Of a stretch of DNA of 64,000 nt, positions 4,937 through 62,646 are shown one piece after another. This DNA comes from Escherichia phage chee24: sequence record NC_047885.1, one strand, 5' to 3'. Below the pieces are notes generated by a model that was not told the DNA's origin, did no database searches, and saw only the letters and a program-made list of their open reading frames with translations. Every line of letters begins with the position of its first letter. Positions within the stretch are counted from its first letter, which is position 1. Position numbers and translations under genes: made by a program.

Positions 4937-5372
4937 ATCTGCGATTCCTTATAATGAATAAGTTTACCGCCGATAGACTTTAAGATATACCCAATTTTTA
5001 AAGAGCGCGGCGGTAAACTTCCCGCCGTGTAGTTCGTCATTGCCGCCCTACGTGATAAATAATAGGGTATTCCCGAAAATGGCGCAACCTTATTTTTGTA
5101 AAGAAACGTAAAGAAAGCAACACGTTCGGCGCTCACCTAAGTTTAAAGGAAACGGGCGCGCGAATACCATAAAACCAAGCAGATAGGCAAGTAATTTTTT
5201 CATTTATATTTGCCTTGCCCTACTTGACAAAATCTAAAAAGCTCGTGGTAGCGATAAACGGCTTATCCCCTTATGATGGGATGGCTAAAAACTTCATCGC
5301 GTTCTAGGACGTTTTAGGCGCATTCTAGCCTTGTTGATAACTTATCCCCAAAAGCAAAAATGAAATTTTCCT

Positions 5373-5410
5373 AGTTATCCACTTGACTTTTATTTTCCAG
5401 TGGATAACTA
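5373..5410. repeat. inverted repeat containing two facing DnaA-box-like sequences
   Basis: AGTTATCCAC ... GTGGATAACT, perfect 10-bp arms. Confidence 0.6.
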
Positions 5411-5720
5411 CTTATTTTATAAAATTAATTAATTGACTTTTATTTGTTAGTGTGTATCGGAAAGATAGCAGACTAATAATTGTTAGGATTATAATCATGC
5501 TGGTGGATTGTAACAGCCTGAACTATTAGCAGACTATTAATCTCGGAAAATCTCATTAGCCAACTAACTATTTCATATTATATAATATACATATAAATTA
5601 ATGAGAAATAATAATTATAAGAAATCGTAACCGATAGAAATAATAACTACAAAAATAATCACCGTTATAATAATAACGATAAGAAACTATCGGCCTAAGT
5701 GAGAACCACTATCATTTAAG

Positions 5721-5813
5721 TTATTCACAAAGTTATCCACAGCACAAAATGATTTGACACGATAGGCGGCGATATAAGGACTTATCCACAGACTTATCCA
5801 CATGTTATCCTAC
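5721..5813. promoter_or_regulatory. cluster of five DnaA-box-like 9-mers
   Basis: TTATTCACA, TTATCCACA (x3), TTATCCTAC within about 90 bp. Confidence 0.6.
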
Positions 5814-5828
5814 TGTATATTTATACAG
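5813..5828. repeat. 16-bp perfect palindrome CTGTATATTTATACAG (copy 1)
   Basis: Exact palindrome adjacent to DnaA-box cluster; identical copy at 9368-9383. Confidence 0.7.
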
Positions 5829-6094
5829 GGTAAAAAGGTAGTGTTAACAACTGCAATCAATTTTAAGCGGCCTAAAACGCTTTCTAACGAGCAAAACGCT
5901 ATAGGGTAATATTAAAGTAAAGCCTCAACGCGTCGCCCTGGTGACTTCGCCGTGTTTTGCTCTTTACTATACCGCTGCGCGTTTAACATAAAAATAAGCG
6001 TTAGGCAAGGAAAATAAAAAGGTAAAATAATATTTGCCCCTAGAAAGAAAATACCTTTATCATTCACTCACCGATTAACGAGGGAGGCCAACAA

Positions 6095-7087
6095 ATGCGG
6101 CTATATAAACCAGATAACGCAACCGTCTTAAAAGGTGCGTTGCGTAACCTGCTGGATGGTAGCAGAACAACCAGCATTAAACATTTTGTTTTCAATATTG
6201 AAACACTTCATCGTAATTTTCTTGATGATTACGATGCTTATAATATGAATAGTTTTCTACCGTTATATAATCAAGGGGCAACGCTTGTTTTATATAATCA
6301 GGAATCTCACTTGCTTACTAGTCGAGGGCCAGATACTGATTTTATTATAGTGAAAGGCAGTACAGTAAAAGCCTATGATGCGGGGGCGGGCTTAGAAGTT
6401 TTCACGATAGAAAATTATGAGCCTTATGATAAGGATCTTTATGACGTAGAAAATTTTCTCGATTCATTTTGGCGTTATTTATCAATTGGGTGGAATCGAT
6501 CAGATTATCACGGGTATCGTTTTGCGGCTATAATGGCTTTTGATGATAACGGTAATTTTTTGCTACCGTCGGAATTATACCCGTATGTATATAATGATTT
6601 AATAGAGGAGGCTGGTTTTACTTTCTGGAAAGATGAAGATCAGCCTATTGACAACACGGAAAAACATGCTGTAAATTCTAACACTCAAAGCGTTAACACT
6701 CAAATTACTGAAAACAAAGGAAAAAATACCATGACCAAGATCGCTAATATCGTTGCCGCCAATAAGTCTGCTGTTGTAAATGCTGCAAAACTGGAAGCGG
6801 GTAAAATTGCATTAACTCAAATCACGAAAGTAGCGGCTAAAAAAGCGCCGTTTATGATTAAAGGTTATATTGATACGCCGATTGGTCGGGTAGTTATTGC
6901 CAACCTGCTGAGCGTAGCGGTTGACCAGTACGCCCCAGCTAACCAGAAAGCGAAAGCGGTAGCAGGTGCAGCTATGGAAGCGGCTATGTTAGAAATGGTG
7001 CAAAGTTTTAACATCGCTGAAATGATCGATGAAATGGTGAAAGGTATTGATATTTCTACTTTTACCACTAGCACCGAAAGCGAGTAA
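6095..7087 (+). CDS. hypothetical protein (330 aa, Ala/Lys-rich C-terminal region)
   Basis: ORF with GAGGGAGG RBS; first gene of rightward cassette bounded by inverted DnaA-box/palindrome repeats. Confidence 0.6.
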   Translation: MRLYKPDNATVLKGALRNLLDGSRTTSIKHFVFNIETLHRNFLDDYDAYNMNSFLPLYNQGATLVLYNQESHLLTSRGPDTDFIIVKGSTVKAYDAGAGLEVFTIENYEPYDKDLYDVENFLDSFWRYLSIGWNRSDYHGYRFAAIMAFDDNGNFLLPSELYPYVYNDLIEEAGFTFWKDEDQPIDNTEKHAVNSNTQSVNTQITENKGKNTMTKIANIVAANKSAVVNAAKLEAGKIALTQITKVAAKKAPFMIKGYIDTPIGRVVIANLLSVAVDQYAPANQKAKAVAGAAMEAAMLEMVQSFNIAEMIDEMVKGIDISTFTTSTESE

Positions 7088-9932: not shown

Positions 9933-10261
9933 AGATTTTTGTGACTTCGATTGGAGGGTGTGTGATTGTATGGGTTTGAGGAGAAGGTGAGAGAGCGAGA
10001 GAAATTTTGGTACTAGAAGGGTGTGGGCGCAGGATTGGTGCGGAGCACCTGATTTGCGGGGATTTTGGGGAAGATGTAAGATAATTTGGGAAGATTTGAG
10101 ATAGGTGCAGAAAAAGTGAAATTTTATTAGCAAAATGGGGCAAAATAGCTTGACAAGTGAAAATTCCTGTGGCTCTAAAAACTCAGGCAATCATGGGCCT
10201 TCGGCCCGAAATAATGCTGCTATTTTCAGGGGAGTAAAAGTTCCTAAAAACTTAGGCGTTT

Positions 10262-10310
10262 GTGCAAATCCGACCATAAATTTCTAGAAATGCAGTGTGC
10301 AAATCCGACA
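10262..10310. repeat. two further copies of the GTGCAAATCCGAC iteron
   Basis: Copies at 10262 and 10297, each followed by a TTCTAGAAA or TTCTGGAAA palindrome-like motif. Confidence 0.7.
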
Positions 10311-10339
10311 GTAATTTCTGGAAATGTGTTTTCAAAAAA

Positions 10340-10440
10340 TGTCTTCTAGAAATAACCGCCCTCCCTATAACCGCCCTGTATTAACCGCCTAGTATATGTT
10401 CCTAGAAACTTAGGAGAACCGCCCACTAGAAGTGTGATAT
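10340..10440. repeat. AACCGCC short direct repeats (four copies) interleaved with TTCTAGAA-type palindromes
   Basis: ATAACCGCC, ATAACCGCC, TTAACCGCC, GAACCGCC seen within 100 bp. Confidence 0.55.
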
Positions 10441-10787
10441 TTCGTGAGAACTCTGGAGTTTCTAGGAAAGTGTTATGCCATCCTAGCAGATGAGCGACAA
10501 CAGGTGTATCATCTTGAATGTAAATTATGTGGACAAAAGTTTTACCTTTTATTTAAATAAAAGATCCCCCAATCTCGTAAGTCTGCTGCTCTAGGCGTTC
10601 AAGATCTGTATGCTAATCCCGTGAAAACTGCTGCAGAATACATCCTAACGCCAGGGGCGCTGGTGTACTCTTCGAGTTGGGATAGCAATAATCTTGTTGC
10701 CTAGAGCTAAAAACAGAAGTTGTTTTTAATCTATGAGATTATTATAACATGTGCCTTAATGAGTTGTCAAGAAGATTTTGTTAACGT

Positions 10788-11519
10788 TTATTCCTTCCGC
10801 TTGTATTTGAGAACGATACCCTTCGAGACCATGAAGAGGAAAGTTGCAAGATAGGAATGTGGGGATTTTAGCGCATCATAATCTACAGTTCCGAAAGAAC
10901 CTTCGCCAAATACCTCAGAGTTCTCAAATGTAGGAAGTAAACGTGCCAATCCTACAGCTCCTATAATCTTAAAGAATTGATCCCAGTCATTTAACATTGC
11001 TTTATGTGCAGACTGTAAGATTAATGGCATCTCTAGGTTCTTTTCGAGACATAGATGAACCTGCGCAATCGTAGAAGCAATCCCTAGCAACACTTCATCT
11101 TTTGTATAAGGGAATCCAGTATCTTTTCTTTGGAGTCTAGGAAGATGATCATATTCACAACGTTTAGGTGGGATGAACTTTTCCTCGGGATATAATTCTA
11201 ATGCAACTCTAACGTTTCCTTCTTTAAATACTGGAAGTTCCTGATCTGCAAAGACATGATATGAATCTGCCTTGAACCCTACAATCTTATCACCAACAGA
11301 ATTGATGATCTTTCTCATTGCAATATAAGAAGGGGATAGAGTTACGAATTTTTCTTCTTTATTATATTTAACAATTCCAGCTTCTGTATAAGCTGCGGGA
11401 TGAAACTCAGAACAGAATGCTACTGCATGAGCTTCATCAGGAGTTAGTTCAGAAACACATTTGCCGTCAGCATTCTTAGCCAGCTTAATAATAGTCTTTA
11501 AATTCTCACTAATACTCAT
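10788..11519 (-). CDS. hypothetical early protein (243 aa)
   Basis: ORF; first in a run of tightly packed leftward ORFs. Confidence 0.6.
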   Translation of the reverse strand: MSISENLKTIIKLAKNADGKCVSELTPDEAHAVAFCSEFHPAAYTEAGIVKYNKEEKFVTLSPSYIAMRKIINSVGDKIVGFKADSYHVFADQELPVFKEGNVRVALELYPEEKFIPPKRCEYDHLPRLQRKDTGFPYTKDEVLLGIASTIAQVHLCLEKNLEMPLILQSAHKAMLNDWDQFFKIIGAVGLARLLPTFENSEVFGEGSFGTVDYDALKSPHSYLATFLFMVSKGIVLKYKRKE

Positions 11520-19857: not shown

Positions 19858-20274
19858 TTAATCTACTGCATGTATAAATCTTTTCCTAACTAGATACATA
19901 GTTATTGGGTAAATTGAGTACATAAGTATCGGGGAGAAAAGGGTGAAATACGCTGTAACTCCCCCAGCTAACATCAAAGGTATTAATGCTAGAGTAAGGG
20001 CCATAAGAATCATACCGAATGAAACAGCCAAAGCTATGGATATAGGATTCTCTAGTTCCATCCATAACCAACAATATTTCGTATCTCTATGGCAATTGCA
20101 TTTACAAACGCCGAATGAACCCATAATTATATACTCTAGTCCGTGAATAACCTTTATTAATAAGCTATTTCGGGTAGTTAATGCAACGATAGTAAAGACT
20201 ATCATTAAAACGAATACTACTAGACTTATTTTCCAGATACCTAGTAGCATCATAGTGAATAGTTCTGCAAACAT
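19858..20274 (-). CDS. multi-pass membrane protein (138 aa)
   Basis: ORF with 3-4 hydrophobic helices; directly downstream of endolysin. Confidence 0.5.
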   Translation of the reverse strand: MFAELFTMMLLGIWKISLVVFVLMIVFTIVALTTRNSLLIKVIHGLEYIIMGSFGVCKCNCHRDTKYCWLWMELENPISIALAVSFGMILMALTLALIPLMLAGGVTAYFTLFSPILMYSIYPITMYLVRKRFIHAVD

Positions 20275-20351
20275 GGCTTTCTCCTATCTTCAAAAGTTAT
20301 TAAAGCCCCCTTTGCCTAAAAAGGCGGGAATATTCCCGCCTAAGTTATTAA

Positions 20352-20765
20352 TTAAACTAGTTCGACATGACCGCCATCATAGGTACCACGTTTTATTTCA
20401 TCGTGATAATCTCCCGAAGCATTCCAATCAGCACCAAAACGAAGTTTAATGCCTAGTTCTTTACCTGCTTGTTCAAAAGCCTTTTTAACTGCCCAAAATG
20501 CTTCTAAATCATTCCAATCAATCTTACCATTAATGTATGGAGCAAAATCAAGAGCATCCCCAGTAATATGCTTGCTTTTACTAGGATCTTTTAAGAATGA
20601 AGTACCATTAGCAATATTCTGGGCACTTTGTGCTACTGTACGAATACCCTGTACGATCGTGAAATCATAAGGAGATAATTCTAAAGCTCTACGAGCTACT
20701 TTTTGTAGCTCTGGCTTAACGGTAGCTAATTGTTTTTCGCTATTTTTACCAAATTTAAAACTCAT
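20352..20765 (-). CDS. lys: endolysin, L-alanyl-D-glutamate peptidase
   Basis: 137 aa; peptidase M15-like residues (H..D..H); size matches T5 endolysin; adjacent holin-like gene. Confidence 0.75.
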   Translation of the reverse strand: MSFKFGKNSEKQLATVKPELQKVARRALELSPYDFTIVQGIRTVAQSAQNIANGTSFLKDPSKSKHITGDALDFAPYINGKIDWNDLEAFWAVKKAFEQAGKELGIKLRFGADWNASGDYHDEIKRGTYDGGHVELV

Positions 20766-29889: not shown

Positions 29890-30117
29890 AATTGAAAACT
29901 CGCAGGGTTAGCGAAACCATCCTCAATTAGCATGTTCTAGAATACTAATCAAGTTATCTCCTATTGCACGCAGCTCAAGACGAGTACGAATTTTCAATTG
30001 TGGCGGCTCTCAGAAACTCTTCTATTCTAGCCCCAGAAGCTTACCCCCGAACGCATGTCGGGAAAGTCTTTCCAAGCGCATCAAATAGCACCGTTACACT
30101 TTGAGCCATTGATATAT

Positions 30118-30203
30118 CAAGGAACAGAAGGAGTTGAACCTTCACGAGATAGACCATTTATCTCAACCGCTTTTAAGGTATATTTCTAGGAGTGGATGTT
30201 CCT
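30118..30203 (-). other. tRNA-like element (perfect acceptor and T-arm, non-canonical D/anticodon region)
   Basis: Acceptor AGGAACA/TGTTCCT, T-arm GAAGG-TTCAACT-CCTTC, internal hairpin GAGATA..TATCTC; no standard anticodon loop found. Confidence 0.35.
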
Positions 30204-30257
30204 AGTAAACCTATTCGGCAGTCCCGTCTACCAATTCCGGCATATTCCAAGAATTTT

Positions 30258-31288: not shown

Positions 31289-31546
31289 AAAATCTTTAGT
31301 TTACTAAGGCTATTAGCTCGGCGTAACTACAGCACCTTCGCTTCGAGCGGAAGGAACTGCGTCATCTCGCAAACCCGATACACTATTCAGTTGCCATGAA
31401 TCTAGTGGACTAATCTAGAACTTCTCCCAAATCGTAGGGATCGTGCTTTTTGGCAGCCAGTCCTAGGTCGAGCTAATACCTTAGTGAACTATGATGAGGA
31501 TTTCTCCCCATCAATTTATATAAATATTATAACAAGAAATTAAGCA

Positions 31547-32895: not shown

Positions 32896-33347
32896 TTAAT
32901 TTTGTTAACTCACTTTATAAGATATATTATACAGAGAATTAAGTAAAATAGCAAATGAATTTTTAATAAATTTACTTATTATGTAGGCCGCCTGGAGGCT
33001 ACCAACCCCACGGCTGACAAAGAAGTTTGCGAGACTTCTCTTAAAAGCCAGAATAGACCCGCCGGTCTATCGGAACCTACATAATAAGTAAACTTTATAG
33101 TGTCATTCTAGGCAGGACTCGAACCTGCTATCACTTGTGCGGACTTACGAGAACCATTCTTTCACTCGAATCGAACGAGCTTCTGCCCTCGCCAAGCTGG
33201 TTTCCCCCATCAACCACGCTAGAATGTTAGATTGTTTTCAGTGCAAGAGTCCGAGTCTTGGACACGACCGCTTCGCAAGTACATAGGCAGCTTATCATGA
33301 GTCAGCACTTCCGAATTGCTAGCTCCGTGTTCTGCACTGAAATTTTA

Positions 33348-33992: not shown

Positions 33993-34094
33993 GCTTGTTT
34001 CCTCAGTTATTAATGAAAATGGTATCTGTGGCTGAATTCGATGTCAGCAATGATAGCTGGTTGGCTACCGGTTTACTTAACTCTACACAGAATT

Positions 34095-36353: not shown

Positions 36354-36560
36354 CTAAACTCCAGATTTTTCGGCCAAGTCTAGACTAATAAGAGTTATAG
36401 CCATAATTGCTGCACCGTGTTCTTTTTCTCCGGTGTTTTTAGCAGAGTCTATAATATCCTTAATCTGTTCGTAATAACTTTTTACTTCTTGTTCAATGCC
36501 TGCCTCGGCTATCATGCCTTTAGCCATGAATCGTTGCATGGTAATTTCAGGATTAGCCAT
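36354..36560 (-). CDS. hypothetical protein (68 aa)
   Basis: ORF. Confidence 0.4.
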   Translation of the reverse strand: MANPEITMQRFMAKGMIAEAGIEQEVKSYYEQIKDIIDSAKNTGEKEHGAAIMAITLISLDLAEKSGV

Positions 36561-36735
36561 GTTGTTTCTCCAGTTTCATTTTTAATAGTTTACAGATGAA
36601 ATCAACGTCTTCATCTGTGCCTAAGTCTCTATCCTCAAGGGTCGCCTTGAAGTTTTTCGTCAATTCCATGAGGATGACTTCCCTAGAACGACGTGTTGGC
36701 GGAGGTGGATGTCTATACATCTTATTTCCTTAATT

Positions 36736-36812
36736 TGGTAGGGGTGGTGGGATTCGAACCCACAAAACCTGAATTTTAAGTCCAGTACCTATGCCAATTC
36801 GATTACACCCCC
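36736..36812 (-). tRNA. tRNA with anticodon TAA (Leu-type anticodon, class I shape)
   Basis: Hand-folded; acceptor GGGGGTG/CACCCCT, T-arm GTGGG-TTCGAAT-CCCAC, anticodon arm CTGGA-CTTAAAA-TTCAG, discriminator A. Confidence 0.5.
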
Positions 36813-37107
36813 ATGTAATCAGTTTATTAGTTGATACATATTATAGCCTAAAGAAAACCCTACTACTAATCCTACGAACCAACCAATATAATAATCTTTT
36901 AATTTCACGGGTGTCAACCTCGTTCAATATCTAGAGAAATACCACAGGTAGGATTAATGCCTGTGCCTTTGCACGTCGGACAAACCCAGATATTACAGAA
37001 TGTATCCCCTGCTTCTGCATCAGAACTTTTCCAACTCCTAGACAGTTAGGACAGGCACATTCTTCTAGCTCTTGCTTGAGTTCTTGAAACTTAGACATAT
37101 AGTTTCC

Positions 37108-37296
37108 TTATTCAATTACTTTTGAGGCTTCAAGGGAGTCGATATAGTGTACGTTTTCTACCATGATCATATAATCTGCCACTTTATCCATAGCCTGAGC
37201 TTCAGAGGTAGCCCTGGCTAACCTATATCCTTTTTTATATTCATCCGGGTATTCCCTATCTGGAATAAACACAACACAAACTAGGTATAGTTCCAC
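37108..37296 (-). CDS. hypothetical protein (62 aa)
   Basis: ORF. Confidence 0.4.
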   Translation of the reverse strand: MELYLVCVVFIPDREYPDEYKKGYRLARATSEAQAMDKVADYMIMVENVHYIDSLEASKVIE

Positions 37297-37317
37297 TTGT
37301 AACCTCTCTAATCAAGA

Positions 37318-37395
37318 TGGTGGCTCCCCGAGGATTCGAACCTACGTACCTTCCGGTTATGAGCCGGATGCTCATACCATATGAGCTTGAGAACC
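37318..37395 (-). tRNA. tRNA-Met/Ile2 (CAT)
   Basis: Hand-folded; perfect anticodon arm TCCGG-CTCATAA-CCGGA; D-arm GCTC..GAGC; T-stem weak. Confidence 0.6.
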
Positions 37396-37401
37396 AGAAT
37401 T

Positions 37402-37490
37402 TGGCGGAAGAAGTGGGAATCGAACCCACAAGGCTATATTTCAAACCGACAGATTAGCAATCTGCTGCAATACCGTTATGCTATTCTTCC
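37402..37490 (-). tRNA. tRNA-Ser (GCT), class II
   Basis: 89 nt; perfect acceptor GGAAGAA/TTCTTCC; anticodon arm GCAGA-TTGCTAA-TCTGT; long variable arm. Confidence 0.65.
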
Positions 37491-37511
37491 GAATTTATAA
37501 GATATATTATA

Positions 37512-38030
37512 TTAGAAATTTAGCTTCATAGCAAGAAAATTTTTCAAGTTTTCGGTAGACATCTCATCCACATCTACAGGAGAAACAAATCCATTTAATT
37601 GTCTAGCAAATTTTTCACCAGCAGGATCATTATCCCCAACAGCTACCAATTTAAAAGGTAGTAATTTCAATTGCTTTAACAACGCTTTTCCTGGAGAAGA
37701 ACCCAACATTGCCAGGGCTGGATAACCAGCGTTATGTAATGCTACGGCCTTAAATACAGATTCCGCAACCAATACTACTTTTTCATCCCCATTGAGAGTT
37801 TCCAGCCCCCATACACACTGTGTAGTAGAATAAGTAAAATACTTAGCTTCAAAAGGAGATTTACCATGACCTTTTGGAGCAGAAGGATTATAAGTCTGAT
37901 AGCCTCTCAACATCCCAGAGAAGTCATACAATGGGACTGTTAGCCATCCTTCCGGACTTAACCAGCAATGATATTTATCTGTATCAAACCCTCTAGATAA
38001 GAGATGTTCTGTTAGTTCATCAACAGTCAT
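37512..38030 (-). CDS. Toprim-like domain protein
   Basis: 172 aa; VVLVAES ... VAVGDNDPAGEKFARQL resembles Toprim acidic motifs; promoter at 38059-38087. Confidence 0.5.
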   Translation of the reverse strand: MTVDELTEHLLSRGFDTDKYHCWLSPEGWLTVPLYDFSGMLRGYQTYNPSAPKGHGKSPFEAKYFTYSTTQCVWGLETLNGDEKVVLVAESVFKAVALHNAGYPALAMLGSSPGKALLKQLKLLPFKLVAVGDNDPAGEKFARQLNGFVSPVDVDEMSTENLKNFLAMKLNF

Positions 38031-39968: not shown

Positions 39969-39984
39969 ATCTTAAATACAGAAA

Positions 39985-40016
39985 AGCCCTGCGCTCTCCA
40001 GGGAACGCAGGGCTTA
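39985..40016 (-). terminator. rho-independent terminator for leftward SPFH gene
   Basis: Hairpin AGCCCTGCG..CGCAGGGCT with T-run on minus strand. Confidence 0.6.
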
Positions 40017-40038
40017 CTTCGAATATTACGTGTGGGTA

Positions 40039-40986
40039 TTACTTGTTACGCATATCCATAATCATCTGGCCATCATAACCAGTGCCAACCACAGTCTGCG
40101 GTACACCACCTTGATACTTCTGAGCACGAATCATTTCAACTTCTAGTTGCTTCCAGCGAATCATCTCAGGAGTAATGGTACGTTGCAGAGCAGCGTTAGC
40201 TTCAGCTTCTTTCTTAGCTGCATACAGTTTAGCATCTGCATCACGTTCGTTTGCAATAGCTTGGTTGTTACGAGCTTCACGATCTGCTTCTGCTTGTTTA
40301 ACCTTCTGCTGTGCTTCTTGTTCAACGCGAGCTAATTCAGCTTTCGCAGCATTAACTTGTTCTTCGCGAACTTTGGTATTCTGTACCTGTTCCATAATTA
40401 CCGGTGGCAATGTAATATCCTGAAGGAACACTTGCTTAACTGTGTAACCATAGGGGCGTGCATACTCTTCAACTTCCTGTTGAATTGCAGTTTGCAATTG
40501 TGCTTGAATTTTAGCATCAAACAAATCTTGTGCTTTAGGTACAGACTTACCAAACTCACGAATAGTAGACAGTAATTTTTCAGTTACATACTTATCTAGA
40601 GCCTGATCTTGAGTACCCGCATTAATACGGTTGATCGGTGCCTTAGAACCATCAAACTGCAACATAACAGTCAGGTCAACAGTGGATTTAAACTTATCCT
40701 GGCTAGGAACCTGAAGTTTATCTAATTTTACAGCAATATCTTTTGTACTAAAAGTATCGAAAGATGCAAATGGGTTTACAAGATGGAAACCAGGTAATAC
40801 TGGGTTAGGATCTACTTTACCTAGAAATGTTTGGGTTTTAACCGTACCATCAGAAACAATAGTATATGAATTAAAAGCTAGGATTAAACCTGCTAAACCA
40901 ACTACAGCACCAATACTCCAACGTTTAATAGTGCGAATTACTTTTTGCTCAGAAGTCAGTTCTTTCATATTTTTAGTATTAGACAT
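40039..40986 (-). CDS. SPFH/band-7 (prohibitin/HflC-like) membrane protein
   Basis: 315 aa; N-terminal TM helix, SPFH-like core, charged coiled-coil C-terminus. Confidence 0.6.
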   Translation of the reverse strand: MSNTKNMKELTSEQKVIRTIKRWSIGAVVGLAGLILAFNSYTIVSDGTVKTQTFLGKVDPNPVLPGFHLVNPFASFDTFSTKDIAVKLDKLQVPSQDKFKSTVDLTVMLQFDGSKAPINRINAGTQDQALDKYVTEKLLSTIREFGKSVPKAQDLFDAKIQAQLQTAIQQEVEEYARPYGYTVKQVFLQDITLPPVIMEQVQNTKVREEQVNAAKAELARVEQEAQQKVKQAEADREARNNQAIANERDADAKLYAAKKEAEANAALQRTITPEMIRWKQLEVEMIRAQKYQGGVPQTVVGTGYDGQMIMDMRNK

Positions 40987-41020
40987 ATATTTCCTTTGTT
41001 TTAGTTACAGTTAATAAAAT

Positions 41021-41095
41021 TGGCCGAGGTGACAGGATTCGAACCTGCATAAAGGAATTTAGAAGACTCCTGCCTCTCCCTTAGACTACACCCCG
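41021..41095 (-). tRNA. tRNA-Arg (TCT)
   Basis: Hand-folded; anticodon arm GGAGT-CTTCTAA-ATTCC; T-arm GCAGG-TTCGAAT-CCTGT. Confidence 0.65.
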
Positions 41096-41597
41096 TTTAA
41101 GTATTTTTAAGAACTCTCGTAAAAACTCTTAAAAATACAGACGATACCGGGAGAGTCATAAGTCTCACTCATTAAGTATTTCAAGACAAAATACAGTAAC
41201 GTCTATTATTTTCCAGTTTAAGTCAAGGTGACTTAGTGGTTATGTCCTGCGGTATACTGAGGACTAGGTTAGGTTAGGGTCATGACTCCCCACCTTTTTG
41301 CTGCTACTCAACAGGAGTTATCGCGAATTACCTGTGCTATTGTGCACCATTAGTGGCATCTCTCATGCCAGCATTTCCCACTTTGTGGATAGTTTGAAAA
41401 ACTACTCCGATATGGAGAAAGAACTTCACTATCCTAGAATACCTTCTAAAGTTCTTCTTTAGCCTGGACATAGTTAAATCGTAATAAAACTATTCAGCAG
41501 ACTGGTTGGTTAGTCTGGAACCAACTACCGCGTGGTTTAGGCAGTGCGCAACTAACCTCGGAAGCTTTTACATTAAAAGCACCAGTTATCCAGTTCT

Positions 41598-41670
41598 TAC
41601 CGACCGTAGGATTCGAACCTACATCTTCCACCAGTTACGGCTTGATAATACCGTTTTATACTAGATCGGC
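41598..41670 (-). other. tRNA-like element (acceptor and perfect T-arm; anticodon arm unresolved)
   Basis: T-arm GTAGG-TTCGAAT-CCTAC and acceptor GCCGATC/GGTCGGT; CCA not encoded. Confidence 0.35.
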
Positions 41671-41893
41671 AGTGTTACTACATAAGTGATTTCCACACCC
41701 CACTATCAGTAAATTAGAGAAGAGTTTAGGGGAGAGGTTTCAGACGCCCCATTTTACACGTTCTAGCCACTAACCGGGATTGCCGCCCCCTGTGTACTAG
41801 TTTTCCAACTAACCCACCGACTCTATTCAATGCGCTCCGGTTGGGATTCTGCACTCAGCGTAATCGGCTCGCTGTTCTCTAATTTATGAATAT

Positions 41894-41922
41894 ATTATAC
41901 AGAATTTATAAGCATTTAGCAA
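41894..41922 (-). promoter_or_regulatory. sigma70-type early promoter (-35 TTGCTA, -10 TATAAT) facing an ORF-free region
   Basis: ATTATA-N17-TAGCAA; downstream leftward region 41100-41880 has no ORF of 60 aa or more. Confidence 0.6.
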
Positions 41923-41930
41923 ATAAATTT

Positions 41931-42374
41931 TTAATTAAATTCGCCAGCAATCTGAGCAGCAGTACCACCATCATAACGCCCAGGAAATTCTTCCTTAATC
42001 GCTTTCATCAGCATACCTTTTGTAATTCCAGGGTTTAGCTTAACTAATTCTGCAAAGTATTTACGAATCTCAGTATCAGATAACTGAGGAGGCAGATACT
42101 CCTGCAACCACTTATTTAGAATGTATTCATACTGAGTGGACTGCAAGCTATAACTATCAAGATCTTGACCATGAAGTTTAGCTTTCATCTGGTTAATGCT
42201 TTTTAGTTGAGCTTTGAGATAAGACACAAATTGTTCAGAAGTGATGAAATCTTTATCAATACGCTGAAGATCCCCGATTATGGTCTGATAGCTTTTAGCG
42301 ACTTCTTTATCAGAACCATTAAACTTAGAATCCTGCAAAGCTCTACGCAAAACATCTAAAATATTCTCTTCCAT
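41931..42374 (-). CDS. hypothetical protein (147 aa)
   Basis: ORF; T5-type promoter motif upstream near 42560-42600. Confidence 0.5.
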   Translation of the reverse strand: MEENILDVLRRALQDSKFNGSDKEVAKSYQTIIGDLQRIDKDFITSEQFVSYLKAQLKSINQMKAKLHGQDLDSYSLQSTQYEYILNKWLQEYLPPQLSDTEIRKYFAELVKLNPGITKGMLMKAIKEEFPGRYDGGTAAQIAGEFN

Positions 42375-58844: not shown

Positions 58845-59237
58845 ATGGAACAAGTATATTGGCGTCAGATTGACCCTAGTTTGGTGAAACGTGCGGAGAA
58901 GCTGCTACAACGTTGGTTGGGGGTAAGACAAGTCTCCTTCACTTTTCCGGAGCAGCAAACGGATGATCCATGCATTGGCGTTTTCCTGTCTGGATATGCC
59001 GGGGAATGGGAATTGGATTGGAATGAATTGTCTGCTATGGGCTTGATTGTTGCCCTAAACTTCTCTTTGTTCCATCCACGTGGTTTGGCCATATGTCGTG
59101 TGCCTGATGATGGTTGTTCGCCCCATCTTTTACAGGTGGAAGATGATATTTGGGAGTACACTCCAGATATTCTCACAGAAGCTAAAGAACAATTAAATCG
59201 TGTTGGGATTTATGTTCCGGGCTTAAATGATGAATGA
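58845..59237 (+). CDS. hypothetical protein, paralog B (130 aa)
   Basis: ORF with AAGGAGG RBS; paralog of 58407-58835. Confidence 0.55.
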   Translation: MEQVYWRQIDPSLVKRAEKLLQRWLGVRQVSFTFPEQQTDDPCIGVFLSGYAGEWELDWNELSAMGLIVALNFSLFHPRGLAICRVPDDGCSPHLLQVEDDIWEYTPDILTEAKEQLNRVGIYVPGLNDE

Positions 59238-59328
59238 TTTTTATTAGCTGAACTCTGATTACCGAGTCATTTTGGCTCGGTTTTATCCGTACTCAAGACC
59301 AATGATAGCACCATCCGGAAAATTTTAC

Positions 59329-59357
59329 TTGCATGATGCCCAAAATCTTGATATAAT
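59329..59357 (+). promoter_or_regulatory. sigma70 promoter (TTGCAT-N17-TATAAT)
   Basis: Starts a 500-nt ORF-poor leader upstream of the helicase-like gene. Confidence 0.55.
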
Positions 59358-59856
59358 ATTTATATTGAATTGAGAGACATTAGTAAAAATTGATTTTGCT
59401 AATTTTTCTTGTTTACAATCCGCGATACGGAACAGTTAGGCTGCCCCATTAAGGGTTGTTTTAACTGTTACGTGTTAGTTTTTAAACAAATAGTTAATAG
59501 AATACTTAGCGATCTGCGTCCCGTAGGAACCCTGGTAAGGCCTCGAAGCAACCTAGATAGAGGTGGTTGTGAAGTGAGACGGGAGGAGTGAAAAACTCCG
59601 AGACGTGATTCTGTAAGTTATATTGCATCTAGTATGAGCTAGTATATGAAGCATTAGGTGAGCAAATCTGGCTTAGCGGCCATCCTCAAGGATTTGTGCG
59701 GTATAGCAAAGCAGCAGCGCAGCGTGAAAGTGGAAGTTGCCACCCCACTTCAGTATTTGCGATTAATTTGTTGAGAAATTGACAGTAACAGTTGTTCTAT
59801 TCTTTCTGAATAGTCCTAAAGAAAACTTATTTCATTTCCAACACAGGAGTATTGTT

Positions 59857-62646
59857 GTGTTTTCAATCCTACAAGGTCATGCAGGATTTCATCGCGATTT
59901 AGCCACAGGCAATTGGCGAGAAGTTAAAGCAGAAGATTATCTTTTTGCTAAAAGATTTTCCTCAAAGCATCCTGAAGGTAAACCAGCTTCAATGCCCTTC
60001 AAGTTTGATGTAATTGACGAAGTTGATCCTCAAACCCTAGTAGAAATGCTTCCTCTTATGAGACGTTTAACGTCTGACCCTCATATCGTTGCGGTACGAG
60101 GTCGATGTCTTGCACCTAAAAATAATGTGCGACGTAAGAAGGGCAACTTTAATGTATCTAATCCAAGTCATATAATCGCAATGGATGTGGATGGTATTGT
60201 AGATACAGGAGGTTGTAACAAGTTTGATCTTGTTGGCATGGCGCGTCATATTATTAGGATGTTGAATAGTATTAGTGAGGATATGTTTCCTCTTGATGCA
60301 GGGTTTATTGCTCATGCATCATCTTCGGCTGGACTAAAACCAGGTATCCGAATGCACTTAATACTAGAATCTAATGTTAAAGTTACACAGGGCCAGATCA
60401 AGTTCTTATTTACATCTATCAACGAAAGTAGTAGACAAAAGTATGGTTTTGATATTGCCGACTTAGCTTATTACTCTTCCGTACAGCTCCACTATTTTGC
60501 AGATCCTTTATTTACTGATGGTATAGTTGATCCGTTTAAAGCGGAGAGTGCTTCACGTCTGGTATTTGTTAAAGGCTCAAAAGTAAATTTACCTAATAAT
60601 CTAGTTGACTATGAAACAACTAGAGGAGAGTTTAAAGAGGAATTCTACTCTTTACTCGATCAAATTAAAGGTAAAAAAGCTGCCTCTGATAAAGTAGAGG
60701 AAACTATCAGTGAGCTAGAAGAGGCTGATGATGGGGTATACTTACGTATTATTCCAAAGCTATATCACCGAGCGTTAGAGGATGGGGTAGATTTTGGTTG
60801 GCTAGAGAAAGAAATCCGCCCAGCTTTATCAGAATATATTGCAACTAAAGATAATAGCCGTAATATTCAGGATTATTTCAATAACGGACGGAAGCAGGCA
60901 TTAAAAGCCTTTGTGAATAACTCTAAGCGTGAGATCCCTGAAGTATTAAAAGGTATCCCCCTTAAAAAGCTAGAAACTAACTCACTAGAGACCGACAACT
61001 TCTTGAAATTAAATACTGTACCACCAGAAGGCTATATGACTTTTGTAAAAGCAAGTCTAGGTACAGGTAAAACCACGGCTGTTGTTCGTTGGCTGGATTC
61101 AGGGGTTATTAAAGGTAATTTCTTAGCAATTACCAATACTAGGGCACTAGTGTCTTCAAATGCTAAGAAATTTAGCGCAGGTCAATATGATAAATCTGTA
61201 GATATGCTCAACTTTAAACGTGGGGCTATTGATCGTATGTCCACAACCATTCACTCTTTGCATAAGTTTAAGAGTTTTATTGGTCAAATTGATGCAATCT
61301 TTATAGATGAATGTGATGCAGTAATGAATGACCTATTATTCGCCCCGGTTGTTAAGCAACGTCGCGAGTGTATTCAGGTTCTTCGAGATATTCTTGCAAC
61401 TGCAAAAATAATTATATTATCTGATGGAGATATTAGTGCAGAAACAATTGAAGCATATGGTTCTTTGATTGAGTTTGATAAACCAGTTGCATTTTACAAT
61501 CACCACCGTAAAATGTTATCAAAGGCTCATGCTTATGAGTTTCCTGATGAATCCAGTATTTGGGTTGCACTTCAAACATCACTAGAGATGGGTGAGAAAT
61601 CTATTCTAGTATCTGATTGTGGCCCTGATGAGCTGAATGAGAAGGGTATGGCACTACGTCGTAATACTGGTGCGTTAGTTAAGGAAATCCATTCAAACTC
61701 TACCTCAGATGTGGATATTCGACGTATTCTGGATTATACAACTAATGAGCTAATTGATCAACAAATTGATTGCTTATTATGTAGTCCATCCGTAACGAGT
61801 GGTGTTGACTTCAACTATTTTGATAACGTATTCGTTATTACTAGAACCAGTAATCAAGCGCCAAACATGCGTTTTCAAGCAATCAGGCGCGACCGTGGTG
61901 CTCAGAACATCTATTATTTTATTGATAAATCCACTAGTGGATTCTCCGCAGGTTCTGAACAATATAATATTGATGAAGGTTGGCTGGAGTTAGCACAGCA
62001 ATTATACGCACGTCGCAGGGAGCTGGAATCTAGAAACTATACTAGTACCTTACGTTATTACTTGCTTGATCAGGGTGCAACTATTGATATTTTCAGCGAA
62101 AGCTGGGGAACTATTGAAGGTGCTGGTAAAGAGTACACAGAAGAGCGAATCAAAGCTATTCTACATTCAACCCCGGATTATTGTGCTCCACGTCATGCGG
62201 ATGCGTATGAAGCTAAACTACTTCTTGTTCGCTATTATCATCTTGAGTCTATTAAAGATGTAACAGTTGAGCATGTTGAACAATATATCAAAGATAAACC
62301 GAATGATCGAGCTGCATTCTTCCATAAGATGCACGAGATGTTCTGGGAAGATATTAAGAAGTGTTCAAATATAACCATTAAACCATTCATAGAAGCTCTA
62401 AAAGGTAAGAAAAAGGACTTCTTCCTTAAAACAGGTCAGAGTGCTAACCCAAAATATGCTAGAATGTATCTTGGTATGATGGGTATCGGTAAGGATATGA
62501 ACACTGAAAATATCGTAGACTGGTATAGAACCTACTGCAAAATCGAGTGTATGCCAATTCCTTATAAGTTCATGACTGATGAGGAAAAACATATGCACGA
62601 TGAAGCAATGTCAGAACTAGGTGCTAGAAATGACAGTGAAGAATAA
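59857..62646 (+). CDS. P-loop NTPase/helicase-like protein (candidate replication origin-binding helicase)
   Basis: GTG start with AGGAG RBS inside track ORF 59779-62646; Walker A GTGKTT and Walker B FIDECD in central region. Confidence 0.65.
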   Translation: MFSILQGHAGFHRDLATGNWREVKAEDYLFAKRFSSKHPEGKPASMPFKFDVIDEVDPQTLVEMLPLMRRLTSDPHIVAVRGRCLAPKNNVRRKKGNFNVSNPSHIIAMDVDGIVDTGGCNKFDLVGMARHIIRMLNSISEDMFPLDAGFIAHASSSAGLKPGIRMHLILESNVKVTQGQIKFLFTSINESSRQKYGFDIADLAYYSSVQLHYFADPLFTDGIVDPFKAESASRLVFVKGSKVNLPNNLVDYETTRGEFKEEFYSLLDQIKGKKAASDKVEETISELEEADDGVYLRIIPKLYHRALEDGVDFGWLEKEIRPALSEYIATKDNSRNIQDYFNNGRKQALKAFVNNSKREIPEVLKGIPLKKLETNSLETDNFLKLNTVPPEGYMTFVKASLGTGKTTAVVRWLDSGVIKGNFLAITNTRALVSSNAKKFSAGQYDKSVDMLNFKRGAIDRMSTTIHSLHKFKSFIGQIDAIFIDECDAVMNDLLFAPVVKQRRECIQVLRDILATAKIIILSDGDISAETIEAYGSLIEFDKPVAFYNHHRKMLSKAHAYEFPDESSIWVALQTSLEMGEKSILVSDCGPDELNEKGMALRRNTGALVKEIHSNSTSDVDIRRILDYTTNELIDQQIDCLLCSPSVTSGVDFNYFDNVFVITRTSNQAPNMRFQAIRRDRGAQNIYYFIDKSTSGFSAGSEQYNIDEGWLELAQQLYARRRELESRNYTSTLRYYLLDQGATIDIFSESWGTIEGAGKEYTEERIKAILHSTPDYCAPRHADAYEAKLLLVRYYHLESIKDVTVEHVEQYIKDKPNDRAAFFHKMHEMFWEDIKKCSNITIKPFIEALKGKKKDFFLKTGQSANPKYARMYLGMMGIGKDMNTENIVDWYRTYCKIECMPIPYKFMTDEEKHMHDEAMSELGARNDSEE

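What the first reader, a model, noticed from the sequence alone, without database searches (positions are those of the whole stretch)
41100..41900. 800-bp ORF-free, structure-rich region transcribed from a strong promoter
A consensus early promoter (41894-41922) points leftward into about 800 bp lacking any ORF of 60 aa or more. The region contains a tRNA-like element (41598-41670), a long perfect hairpin (GTATTTTTAAGA..TCTTAAAAATAC, about 41100-41140) and several other inverted repeats, then tRNA-Arg. This is a candidate non-coding RNA locus or precursor transcript.
Basis: partly seen in the sequence, partly recalled or inferred. Interest (0 to 1): 0.55.

Follow-up and report, generated by a model that had tools for sequence, protein, structure and literature searches.

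The report
T5 phage stable RNA "RNAX"
This 0.8-kb gene-free stretch is the already-annotated but never-explained "RNAX" stable RNA of T5-like phages, and comparing related phages shows it is a genuinely folded, three-domain non-coding RNA with a tRNA-shaped arm, sitting at the edge of the phage's tRNA gene cluster.

Summary
The window is a T5-like phage, 100% identical to 'T5-like pork27'. The region 41096-41887 (minus strand) is the ortholog of T5 rnaX, annotated in GenBank as 'stable RNA with unknown functions' and driven by the annotated promoter P16-17. So the locus is already known, but its function is not.

New here:
- RNAX is a conserved structured RNA found across enterobacterial Demerecviridae: Tequinta-, Epseptima-, Sugarland-, Hongcheon-, Myuna-, Novosib- and Priunavirus.
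- It is built from three independently closed domains.
- Covariation is strong. In the universal central domain 91.8% of cells pair, against 29-43% when partners are slid; 22 of 35 pairs show two-sided changes; 0 of 500 shuffles reach this.
- The 5' domain has a covarying pseudoknot.
- No ORF is conserved.
- The 'tRNA-Ser(ACT)' is a tRNA-shaped arm on a long stalk. Some relatives carry a plain hairpin there.
- Rfam gives only tRNA hits; GOLLD and ROOL do not match.
- The core motif is absent from 185,579 bacterial and archaeal genomes.

The most likely mechanism is inferred, not shown. RNAX would be released from an RNAX-tRNA-Arg-mRNA early transcript by tRNA processing and would act as a folded RNA or RNP in tRNA-related phage-host biology. 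The closest analogues in kind are GOLLD and ROOL.

The parts
41894..41922 (-). Sigma-70 early promoter, the ortholog of T5 'P16-17': -35 TTGCTA at 41917-41922, 17-nt spacer, -10 TATAAT at 41894-41899, ATATT discriminator. The predicted +1 is near 41887.
   Evidence: 10 of 12 match. T5 and phage 5 annotation. Early-class discriminator, PMC7472727. The -10 and +1 region is conserved in all lineages aligned. The +1 position is inferred, not mapped.
41096..41887 (-). RNAX, a non-coding RNA of about 790 nt. The T5 record starts rnaX at the equivalent of 41880 and ends it at the base before tRNA-Arg.
   Evidence: 92-99% identical to T5 rnaX over shared parts. Annotated misc_RNA in T5 and phage 5. 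No conserved ORF.
41706..41887 (-). 5' domain. Closing helix P1 pairs 41875-41887 with 41710-41722. P2 hairpin is at 41856-41874. A variable hairpin lies at 41830-41854. The P2 loop (41863-41867) forms a pseudoknot with motif AGUCGG (41817-41822).
   Evidence: P1 core 97.6% paired, P2 100%, pseudoknot 94%, each with two-sided changes. A third pseudoknot state, CAUA/UAUG, occurs in Providencia phage PR1. The domain is missing in T5, SHSML-45, SP01, SP3 and AKFV33. In SB9 an HNH gene replaces it.
41527..41709 (-). Central domain, the universal core. Closing helix P5 pairs 41700-41703 with 41532-41535. The three-part stalk P6 pairs 41677-41690 with 41581-41594. Hairpin P7 is at 41564-41580 and hairpin P8 at 41539-41559.
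   Evidence: Covariance model R1 scores 192.6 bits here; 91-92% paired against 29-43% when slid. P6 is 99% paired, with 7 of 12 pairs changed on both sides.
41598..41670 (-). tRNA-like arm at the tip of P6. It has an acceptor stem, a perfect T arm (GUAGG-UUCGAAU-CCUAC) and GG in the D loop. Its anticodon arm is aberrant and no CCA is encoded.
   Evidence: T-stem and acceptor covary. The arm is replaced by other hairpins in PSa2, L020, L074, PM135, L072 and PR1.
41386..41526 (-). Variable linker of local hairpins between the central and 3' domains. Its sequence and length differ between genera.
   Evidence: Alignment and single-sequence folds.
41236..41385 (-). 3' domain, closed by GUGG (within 41374-41385) pairing with CCAC (within 41236-41244). 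It holds covarying hairpins at 41354-41370, 41311-41335 and 41244-41264. A further hairpin at 41271-41295 carries the invariant loop GAGUCAUGA.
   Evidence: RNAalifold on 9 sequences: 57 pairs, 16 with two-sided changes. Motif invariance.
41221..41233 (-). Nearly invariant small hairpin AGUCA-CCU-UGACU, followed by motif UAAACUGGAA (41207-41220). T5 and L112 carry this pair twice, flanking an ~85-nt insert.
41101..41138 (-). Terminal 17-bp A/U-rich hairpin marking the 3' end of RNAX. There is no U-tract, so it is not an intrinsic terminator.
   Evidence: The right arm is near-invariant even in Pectobacterium phage DU_PP_V. Eos shows a swapped pair of base pairs. In Klebsiella phages it precedes ORFs rather than tRNA-Arg. 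No terminator called.
41021..41095 (-). tRNA-Arg(UCU) with encoded CCA. Its 5' maturation would define the RNAX 3' end.
   Evidence: T5 annotation. RNase P cleavage is inferred from general tRNA biology.
39984..40986 (-). Rest of the predicted transcription unit: an SPFH/Band 7 gene (40039-40986) and the first intrinsic terminator downstream of the promoter (39984-40015).
   Evidence: Pfam Band_7, E = 2e-17. Terminator scan. T5 annotates an 'efficient bidirectional terminator' at this position.
41931..42374 (-). Upstream neighbour, a YqeY-like protein (GatB/YqeY tRNA-binding-type domain). It is context only, not part of the RNA.
   Evidence: Pfam YqeY, 25.3 bits, just under the cut-off of 27. 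It lies adjacent to RNAX in Markadamsvirinae, PM135, PR1 and DU_PP_V, but not in Sugarlandvirus.

Best explanation
The region is the ortholog of bacteriophage T5 rnaX.

Expression and processing. Host RNA polymerase starts at the strong early promoter P16-17 (41894-41922). It would transcribe leftward through about 790 nt of non-coding sequence, then tRNA-Arg and an SPFH-family gene, up to the terminator at about 40000. Maturation of tRNA-Arg, by RNase P at its 5' end, would free RNAX. The 17-bp terminal hairpin of RNAX would protect its new 3' end, which fits the 'stable RNA' label.

Architecture. RNAX is not a spacer. It folds into three independently closed domains:
- a 5' domain with a pseudoknot;
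- a universal central domain whose long stalk carries a tRNA-shaped arm;
- a 3' domain with invariant loop motifs.

Proposed action (inferred). RNAX works in trans as a folded RNA or RNA-protein particle during early infection, in the tRNA- and translation-related contest between phage and host. It may present a tRNA elbow and acceptor mimic to tRNA-binding factors. It belongs to the same kind of element as the large tRNA-island-associated phage RNAs GOLLD and ROOL.

Shown: identity with rnaX, promoter, structure, conservation, non-coding nature and distribution. Inferred: release by RNase P, stabilisation by the hairpin, trans action and any link to tRNA biology. The confidence of 0.7 combines about 0.9 for 'ortholog of rnaX and a genuine structured non-coding RNA' with about 0.3 for the specific mode of action.
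For: Identity:
- The window is 100% identical to T5-like phages, and the region is 92-99% identical to T5 rnaX over shared parts.
- T5 and phage 5 annotate rnaX as 'stable RNA with unknown functions', with promoter P16-17.

Structure:
- Central domain: 91.0% (21 sequences) and 91.8% (38 sequences) of cells pair, against 29-43% when partners are slid.
- 21-22 of 35 pairs change on both sides, and 0 of 500 shuffles reach the observed values.
- 5' domain: P1, P2 and the pseudoknot are supported. PR1, which was not used to define the structure, adds a third pseudoknot state.
- 3' domain: an independent RNAalifold prediction gives 16 of 57 pairs with two-sided changes.

Model test: the covariance model found an unseen homolog in Providencia phage PR1 (90.6 bits, E about 5e-21).

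Strand: 67 G-U cells favour the promoter-sense strand, 91.8% paired against 86.4% on the antisense strand.

Non-coding: no ORF is shared between lineages, and T5 is frameshifted in the 44-aa ORF of the window.

Constraint: the RNA motifs persist where the neighbouring YqeY protein is only 32% identical.

Retention: blastn finds the region in 536 phage records, which include the Salmonella, Escherichia and Klebsiella T5-like phages.

Context:
- RNAX lies at the edge of a cluster of more than 20 tRNA genes.
- T5 tRNAs are known to counter tRNA-cleaving defence systems (PMC11464382).
- GOLLD and ROOL are phage RNAs near tRNA islands, and GOLLD sometimes carries embedded tRNAs (PMC12286853).
Against: - No expression, processing or phenotype data were available here. 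'Stable RNA' rests on a GenBank note.
- No paper in the searchable library mentions RNAX.
- The T5 tRNA region is a known hotspot of non-essential deletions, so any function is conditional.
- The 5' domain is naturally absent or replaced in several phages. The 3' domain appears absent in PM135 and PR1. Only the central domain is universal, which may mean the three domains are separate functional units rather than one machine.
- There is no sequence or structure match to GOLLD or ROOL, so the analogy is by context only.
- Covariation comes from few independent lineages, about 7 genera, so counts of sequences overstate the number of events.
Confidence: 0.7

Rival explanations
1. Precursor cassette. 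RNAX is cut by RNase P and RNase Z/E at the internal tRNA-like element. This would yield a 5' RNA of about 215 nt, a 73-nt tRNA-like RNA and a 3' RNA of about 500 nt. The released tRNA-like RNA, with its non-standard anticodon arm, would act as a decoy or inhibitor for anticodon nucleases or other tRNA-targeting defences.
For: - The element scores above the Rfam tRNA cut-off and keeps acceptor and T arms with covariation.
- Its anticodon arm is the most variable part, with three different versions among relatives, as expected in an arms race.
- T5 also carries other annotated 'tRNA-like stable RNAs'.
- T5 tRNAs neutralise PARIS and retron Eco7.
Against: - The arm is replaced by ordinary hairpins in PSa2, L020, L074, PM135, L072 and PR1, while the flanking junction nucleotides (AACACUG and AAGA) and the stalk stay conserved. 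The conserved unit is therefore the surrounding fold, not the tRNA mimic.
- The acceptor stem often has a U-U mismatch and an unpaired first pair.
- No CCA is encoded.
- The T5 annotators list one 719-nt RNA, not fragments.
Confidence: 0.15
2. Cis-acting leader. The structured region only serves tRNA-Arg and the downstream mRNA, for example as a processing platform, a stability element or a regulator of the SPFH gene.
For: It is co-transcribed with tRNA-Arg and the SPFH gene, with no terminator in between. tRNA-Arg(UCU) follows RNAX in most lineages.
Against: - In Sugarlandvirus, PM135 and PR1, ORFs lie between RNAX and tRNA-Arg, and the downstream genes differ. Yet the RNA and its terminal hairpin or core are kept.
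- 0.7-1.3 kb with three closed domains and a pseudoknot is far more than known leaders need.
Confidence: 0.08
3. Decayed tRNA genes or neutral spacer. The region is the remains of old tRNA genes at the edge of the cluster, with one recognisable pseudo-tRNA.
For: It lies in a tRNA cluster and holds one degenerate tRNA-like element. Annotation pipelines call that element tRNA-Ser, tRNA-Sec or tRNA-OTHER.
Against: - Only one tRNA-like hit exists at E up to 10.
- Helices unrelated to tRNA show compensatory changes.
- Short motifs are invariant across genera whose neighbouring proteins are 32-59% identical.
Confidence: 0.03
4. DNA-level element or small-protein genes. The conserved palindromes, GTCATGAC and AGTCA-N3-TGACT, would be protein-binding sites on DNA. 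Alternatively, short ORFs are translated.
For: Several invariant motifs are palindromic at the DNA level. Many GenBank records annotate small 'hypothetical proteins' here.
Against: - Pairing tolerates G-U on the sense strand only.
- Covariation preserves pairing rather than sequence.
- None of the ORFs is conserved between lineages.
Confidence: 0.04

Closest known systems
Bacteriophage T5 rnaX (RNAX; locus T5s08, NC_005859 40848-41566) and Salmonella phage 5 rnaX (AJ604531)
   Same: Same genomic position: YqeY-like gene, promoter P16-17, RNAX, tRNA-Arg, SPFH gene. Same strand. 92-99% nucleotide identity over shared parts.
   Different: The window's copy, like phage 5, keeps the ~150-nt 5' domain that T5 lacks. 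It lacks T5's ~85-nt insert with a duplicated AGUCACCUUGAC-UAAACUGGAA motif.
GOLLD RNA (Rfam RF01998)
   Same: A large (about 800 nt or more), elaborately folded RNA encoded by phages and prophages, often beside tRNA islands. tRNAs sometimes lie inside its variable linker. One part is conserved and another less so. Function unknown (PMC12286853).
   Different: No match to the Rfam model, even at E up to 10, in the window or in six homologous loci. Different hosts and phage family. Oligomeric cage formation is unknown for RNAX.
ROOL RNA (Rfam RF03087)
   Same: A phage or prophage RNA near tRNA islands, with multiple pseudoknots, no known protein partner and unknown function (PMC12286853).
   Different: No Rfam match. 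ROOL is shorter, about 580 nt (from memory), and has no tRNA-like arm.
Other T5 stable RNAs (RNAI, RNAIII, RNAIV, RNA1, RNA2, RNA2H, RNA3) and, from memory, the T4 tRNA-cluster 'species 1/2' RNAs (rnaC, rnaD)
   Same: Stable phage RNAs of unknown function, co-transcribed with tRNA genes and presumably released by tRNA-processing enzymes. Some are described as tRNA-like. All seven T5 ones are also present in this window.
   Different: They are 70-170 nt. RNAX is 4-10 times larger and multi-domain.
tRNA-like processing or mimicry modules: bacterial Y RNA-like YrlA, MALAT1 mascRNA (both from memory)
   Same: A tRNA-shaped module attached to a longer structured RNA.
   Different: No Rfam hit to any such family. 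Here the module is optional across relatives. E. coli K-12 has no Ro/Rsr partner (from memory).

Membership tests
T5 rnaX (RNAX) orthologous group | Sequence homology to the annotated T5 and phage 5 rnaX | tested here: met
   blastn gives 92.3% identity over 517 nt and 99.3% over 138 nt to T5 rnaX, and 96.9% over the full length to phage 5.
T5 rnaX (RNAX) orthologous group | Synteny and strand: downstream of promoter P16-17 and the YqeY-like gene, immediately upstream of tRNA-Arg(UCU) | tested here: met
T5 rnaX (RNAX) orthologous group | Accumulates as a stable RNA in infected cells | not testable with these tools
   Only the GenBank note 'stable RNA with unknown functions'. No paper in the library mentions RNAX.
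Structured non-coding RNA (general criterion) | Base pairs maintained by compensatory changes beyond controls | tested here: met
   For example, 22 of 35 pairs have two-sided changes and 0 of 500 shuffles reach the observed values. Slid controls pair at 29-43% against 91.8% observed.
Structured non-coding RNA (general criterion) | No conserved reading frame | tested here: met
   ORF sets differ between Tequinta-, Epseptima-, Sugarland- and Hongcheonvirus copies.
tRNA (for 41598-41670) | Match to the tRNA covariance model above the curated cut-off | tested here: met
   34.5 bits against a cut-off of 29, near the low end among the window's 23 tRNA hits.
tRNA (for 41598-41670) | Canonical 5-bp anticodon stem with 7-nt loop, and for Ser identity a long variable arm | tested here: not met
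   The 18-nt anticodon region is left unaligned by the tRNA model. The minimum-energy fold pairs D-loop residues with the anticodon region. There is no long variable arm. This is a tRNA-like arm, not a decoding tRNA.
tRNA (for 41598-41670) | Conserved as a gene among relatives | tested here: not met
   Replaced by unrelated hairpins in PSa2, L020, L074, PM135, L072 and PR1.
GOLLD RNA | Match to the Rfam covariance model (conserved 3' region) | tested here: not met
   No hit at E up to 10 in the window region, nor at E up to 5 in six homologous loci.
GOLLD RNA | Phage-encoded, beside a tRNA island, with a tRNA inside a variable part | tested here: met
   Description of GOLLD in PMC12286853. This is resemblance in context only.
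GOLLD / ROOL RNA | Homo-oligomeric cage assembly | not testable with these tools
   Needs cryo-EM or native gels. The only hint is an invariant hairpin loop containing the palindrome UCAUGA.
ROOL RNA | Match to the Rfam covariance model | tested here: not met
Intrinsic terminator (for hairpin 41101-41138) | G+C-rich stem followed by a U-tract | tested here: not met
   The stem is A/U-rich and is followed by UUAAA. The terminator scan does not call it.
T5 early promoter | Near-consensus -35 and -10 hexamers with a 17-nt spacer and an ATATT discriminator | tested here: met
   Sequence read. Criterion from PMC7472727.

The most novel reading that the evidence does not exclude
RNAX would be a third, independent family of large ornate phage RNAs tied to tRNA islands, after GOLLD and ROOL. 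Unlike those, it sits in a classical, genetically tractable E. coli phage.

Its universal central domain would display a tRNA-shaped or hairpin arm on a rigid stalk. Its invariant palindromic loop (GAGUCAUGA) would mediate RNA-RNA contacts or self-assembly. The particle would bind or sequester tRNA-handling factors or tRNA-targeting defence nucleases.

If so, T5 could become the experimental system that finally assigns a function to this class of RNAs.
Probability: 0.25. Interest if true: 0.75.

Novelty: already known. Interest (0 to 1): 0.5.

Why it matters
T5 is a textbook phage. Its tRNA region has recently been shown to be an anti-defence arsenal, against PARIS and retron Eco7. Yet the largest RNA of that region has carried the label 'unknown functions' for about two decades, and no paper in the searchable literature discusses it.

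This analysis shows that RNAX is a deeply conserved, multi-domain folded RNA with a covarying pseudoknot and an optional tRNA-shaped arm. It is retained across Escherichia, Salmonella and Klebsiella T5-like phages and is found in Pectobacterium, Proteus and Providencia ones too. That turns a GenBank footnote into a defined target.

It also offers a tractable E. coli system for a long-standing open question: why do phages place giant structured RNAs next to their tRNA genes? The same question stands for GOLLD and ROOL.

Practical consequences:
- Many deposited genomes mis-annotate this locus as hypothetical proteins or as tRNA-Ser, tRNA-Sec or tRNA-OTHER.
- No Rfam family covers it.

Tried and rejected
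- Rfam at permissive thresholds, on the window region and six homologous loci: only tRNA hits plus noise such as mir-3167, SpF41 and Hrs13, all far below their cut-offs.
- IMG/VR scan for the hairpin's right arm: the six metagenomic hits outside T5-like genomes had no left arm and no tRNA, so they are chance matches.
- Metagenome scan with the P2 motif: 93 stretches, but only 8 metagenomic ones also carry the second motif, and all are T5- or Klebsiella-phage-like. The rest are chance.
- Finding relatives through the YqeY protein in IMG/VR, with a single sequence and then with an alignment: no new lineages.
- A naive all-against-all helix search on a whole-length MAFFT alignment was dominated by noise, because G-U pairs inflate the number of pair types. 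I abandoned it for domain-wise analysis.
- Small-ORF hypothesis: rejected.
- Reading the hairpin as a terminator or a promoter: rejected.
- Literature: no paper mentions RNAX. The T5 deletion-mutant paper (PMID 29512629) is not held. The DRT9 supplement search for deletion coordinates found nothing. No T5 transcriptome paper describing this locus was found.
- Vibrio T5-like phages pVp-1 and Gary: no RNAX core or 5' motif within 7 kb around their YqeY genes. Whole genomes were not scanned.
- Technical note: a name clash between alignment rows and locus ids briefly corrupted one script. It was fixed and did not affect any reported result.
Full report
**What the window is.** The 1.1 kb around the finding is 100% identical to five 'T5-like' phages from meat (for example MF431731, at nearly the same coordinates). 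It is 93-99% identical to about 190 other Tequintavirus genomes. The window carries 26 ARAGORN tRNA calls, all on the minus strand between 28 and 41.7 kb. This is the classical T5 tRNA region.

**Checking the observation.** All features are on the minus strand.
- TTGCTA-17 nt-TATAAT lies at 41922-41894, matching 10 of 12 positions, the best promoter-like site in 39.9-42.5 kb.
- An ATATT discriminator follows the -10. The literature describes this as common to all known T5 early promoters (PMC7472727).
- Between the stop of the YqeY-like gene (41931) and tRNA-Arg (41095) the longest ORF on either strand is 54 aa.
- A tRNA-like element lies at 41598-41670 (ARAGORN 'tRNA-Ser(act)'; Rfam tRNA 34.5 bits, cut-off 29).
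- The hairpin GUAUUUUUAAGAGUUUU-UACG-AGAGUUCUUAAAAAUAC is at 41101-41138 (-12.5 kcal/mol, z = -3.4).
- tRNA-Arg(UCU) is at 41021-41095.

So the description is accurate. Taken alone, several items are weak. 42% of shuffles also lack an ORF of 60 aa or more. Promoter-like sites are no more frequent than in shuffles. The whole-transcript folding z-score is -2.3. The decisive evidence is comparative.

**Identity.** The T5 reference record annotates the orthologous stretch as misc_RNA rnaX, 'RNAX, stable RNA with unknown functions' (locus T5s08, 40848-41566, 719 nt). It lies directly after 'promoter P 16-17' and directly before tRNA-Arg. Downstream come an SPFH-type 'lipoprotein' gene and an 'efficient bidirectional rho-independent terminator'. 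The tRNA-region record of Salmonella phage 5 carries the same annotation, with a 785-nt rnaX. T5 rnaX aligns to window 41726-41211 at 92.3% and to 41233-41096 at 99.3%. The finding therefore rediscovers a locus that is already annotated, but only as 'unknown functions'. No paper in the searchable library mentions RNAX.

**Transcription unit.** The first intrinsic terminator downstream of the promoter on the minus strand is at 40015-39984, after the SPFH/Band 7 gene (40039-40986; Pfam E = 2e-17). The predicted primary transcript is therefore RNAX, then tRNA-Arg, then the SPFH mRNA. The terminal hairpin of RNAX has no U-tract and is not called as a terminator. Release of RNAX by 5' maturation of tRNA-Arg is an inference from general tRNA biology. 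It matches the T5 annotators' choice of the RNAX 3' end.

**Distribution.**
- blastn finds the region in 536 phage records from Salmonella, Escherichia, Klebsiella, Shigella, Citrobacter, Yersinia and other hosts.
- Syntenic, ORF-poor homologs of 0.65-1.3 kb were recovered from Tequintavirus, Epseptimavirus, Sugarlandvirus, phage Eos and Pectobacterium phages DU_PP_V and My1.
- A homolog in Proteus phage PM135 was recognised by shared motifs.
- A covariance model built from the central domain then found a homolog in Providencia phage PR1. PR1 was not used to build the model (L197 4765-4942, 90.6 bits, E about 5e-21).
- Two Vibrio T5-like phages showed nothing within 7 kb of their YqeY genes.
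- A 20-base core motif (GTGTSGAA-N4-CTTATG-N4-AAC-N-CTG) has 0 matches in one genome each of 185,579 bacterial and archaeal species.
- The same motif has 33 matches in IMG/VR, 32 of them on contigs of 104-123 kb and one on the 14.5-kb BF23 tRNA-region record.

RNAX is thus a family-specific RNA of the enterobacterial Demerecviridae.

**Architecture.** The alignments show short invariant or near-invariant motifs separated by hairpins that vary in sequence and length.

*(i) 5' domain (41887-41706).*
- A closing helix P1 joins the first nucleotides of the transcript to UUCUCUAAUUUA.
- P2 is a hairpin, CAGCG[AGCCGAUUA]CGCUG. A variable hairpin follows.
- The P2 loop forms a pseudoknot with the downstream motif AAUAGAGUCGGUGRGUU.
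- On 14 sequences the P1 core is 97.6% paired, P2 100% and the pseudoknot 94.3%, each with two-sided changes. Slid controls give 37-52%.
- The pseudoknot occurs in three compensating states: CCGA/UCGG in T5-like and Klebsiella phages; CAGA/UCUG in DU_PP_V, My1 and PM135; CAUA/UAUG in PR1.

*(ii) Central domain (41709-41527).*
- Helix P5 (GUGG/CCAC; ACGG/CCGU in Pectobacterium phages; UGGG/CCCA in Proteus and Providencia phages) closes a junction.
- From the junction rise a three-part 12-bp stalk P6, hairpin P7 and hairpin or insert P8.
- The tRNA-like element sits at the tip of P6, between the conserved junction strands AACACUG and AAGA.
- On 21 hand-chosen sequences, 91.0% of 719 cells pair, against 30-42% when slid. 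21 of 35 pairs change on both sides, and 0 of 500 shuffles reach the observed values.
- On the model-derived alignment of 38 sequences the figures are 91.8% paired, 22 of 35 pairs, and P6 99.3% paired. That alignment is fitted to the structure, so one search is the fairer test.

*(iii) 3' domain.*
- After a variable linker, the 3' domain (41385-41236) is again closed by GUGG/CCAC.
- It contains three covarying hairpins, plus a hairpin whose 9-nt loop GAGUCAUGA is invariant.
- It is followed by the near-invariant hairpin AGUCA-CCU-UGACU, the motif UAAACUGGAA, more variable hairpins and the terminal hairpin.
- RNAalifold, run without my input on 9 sequences, predicted these helices. 16 of 57 pairs have two-sided changes.

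G-U pairs favour the promoter-sense strand: 91.8% paired against 86.4% for the antisense strand.

**Not coding, not junk.** The ORFs of 30 aa or more differ completely between lineages. The 44-aa ATG ORF of the window is frameshifted in T5. Only one tRNA-like hit exists in the region at E up to 10. The RNA motifs persist between phages whose adjacent YqeY proteins are 32% identical.

**Modularity.**
- The 5' domain is absent from T5, SHSML-45, SP01, SP3 and AKFV33. The deletion falls exactly between the two P1 strands.
- In Salmonella phage SB9 an HNH_3 homing-endonuclease gene occupies its place.
- Epseptima- and Sugarlandviruses carry an extra insert of about 200 nt between the 5' and central domains.
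- PM135 and PR1 have a different middle segment and appear to end after the central domain. An ORF with a ribosome-binding site follows.
- T5 and one metagenomic relative duplicate the AGUCACCUUGAC-UAAACUGGAA motif around an 85-nt insert.

Only the central domain is universal.

**The tRNA-like arm.**
- Its T arm and acceptor stem are conserved and covary.
- The anticodon region is not canonical. The tRNA model leaves 18 nt unaligned, and the minimum-energy fold is not a cloverleaf.
- It exists in at least three versions, one with a 14-nt longer arm.
- The acceptor stem commonly has a U-U mismatch, and no CCA is encoded (sequence).
- In PSa2, L020 and L074 a different hairpin replaces it. In PM135, L072 and PR1 a plain hairpin replaces it. 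The flanking junction and stalk are unchanged in all of these.

It is therefore a peripheral arm of RNAX, not a tRNA gene. GenBank labels such as tRNA-Ser, tRNA-Sec or tRNA-OTHER are pipeline artefacts. Whether RNase P cuts there cannot be decided computationally.

**Comparison with known families.** Rfam 15 gives no hit other than tRNA, at E up to 10 in the window region and at E up to 5 in six homologous loci. Membership in GOLLD, ROOL, YrlA, tmRNA, RNase P RNA, introns or riboswitch families was therefore tested and not met. In kind, the nearest analogues are GOLLD and ROOL. [quoted passage not shown] RNAX shares that context and complexity but no detectable homology.

**Mechanism.**
- Shown: early-type promoter, co-linear tRNA-Arg, conserved three-domain fold, terminal hairpin, non-coding nature, and retention across hundreds of natural isolates.
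- Inferred: release by tRNA processing, protection by the hairpin, and action in trans as a folded RNA or RNP.

The surrounding tRNA cluster has been shown experimentally to counter tRNA-cleaving defence. T5 tRNA-Lys neutralises PARIS and T5 tRNA-Tyr counters retron Eco7 (PMC11464382). The region is a hotspot of non-essential deletions in the laboratory (PMC12483538). That pattern, dispensable in the lab yet retained in nature, is typical of accessory functions in host-phage conflict. I therefore place a tRNA-related accessory or anti-defence role first. I stress that this step is inference.

**Verdict.** The locus itself is already known (T5 rnaX). What is not in the accessible literature is its conserved architecture and distribution, and its function remains open.

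Noticed in passing
window 29891-29996, 30001-30107, 30108-30251, 31308-31478, 32982-33082, 33101-33226, 34020-34092 (all minus strand): Orthologs, 96-100% identical, of the seven other T5 'stable RNAs with unknown functions': RNAIII, RNAI, RNA1, RNA2H, RNAIV, RNA2 and RNA3. They lie between the tRNA genes, and none matched an Rfam family other than tRNA in the whole-window scan.
   Followed up: partly
L001 (T5) 1551-1560 versus window 41727-41875; also SHSML-45, SP01, SP3, AKFV33: T5 itself and four other Tequintaviruses lack the whole ~150-nt 5' domain of RNAX. The deletion falls between the two strands of helix P1, so the reference phage carries a truncated version of the RNA.
   Followed up: yes
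L027 (Salmonella phage SB9) 1044-1523; also Salmonella phage 2-3 and mar003J3: An HNH_3 homing-endonuclease gene sits between the RNAX promoter and the central domain, in place of the 5' domain. The RNAX locus is a landing site for mobile endonuclease genes, like other parts of the T5 tRNA region.
   Followed up: partly
L032 (T5) rnaX and L112, 3' part: An ~85-nt insert is flanked by a direct duplication of the near-invariant motif AGUCACCUUGAC(U/A)UAAACUGGAA. This gives two copies of the small hairpin in these phages.
   Followed up: no
window 41700-41703/41532-41535 and 41374-41385/41236-41244: The central and 3' domains are both closed by the same helix, GUGG/CCAC, within similar motifs (AGUGGGG and AAACCAC versus AGUGGGAAA and AUAACCAC). 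Domain-swapped or alternative pairings are therefore possible. The invariant GUCAUGAC loop and the AGUCA...UGACU hairpin also share half-sites.
   Followed up: no
GenBank records under the match: Many deposited T5-like genomes annotate 1-4 'hypothetical proteins' on either strand across RNAX, and label the tRNA-like arm tRNA-Ser, tRNA-Sec or tRNA-OTHER. The YqeY-like neighbour is often labelled 'recombination-related exonuclease'. These look like annotation artefacts.
   Followed up: partly
window 41931-42374 versus L001 1066-1500: The YqeY-like protein of this phage is only 49% identical to that of T5, though 93% identical to that of Epseptimavirus bastian. The divergence is mainly in the N-terminal two thirds, which suggests mosaic exchange right next to RNAX.
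   Followed up: no
window ~4951-6235, ~10001-10985, ~36401-37700, ~59051-59935: These are other 835-nt windows without any stop-free stretch of 70 codons. The one near 10 kb probably corresponds to the known long non-coding, repeat-rich region at the border of the first-step-transfer DNA described for T5 and BF23 (PMC10644984).
   Followed up: no
window 20269-20382 (minus strand): A weak full-length hit of the RNAX central-domain model (14.9 bits, E about 0.05). It is probably noise.
   Followed up: no
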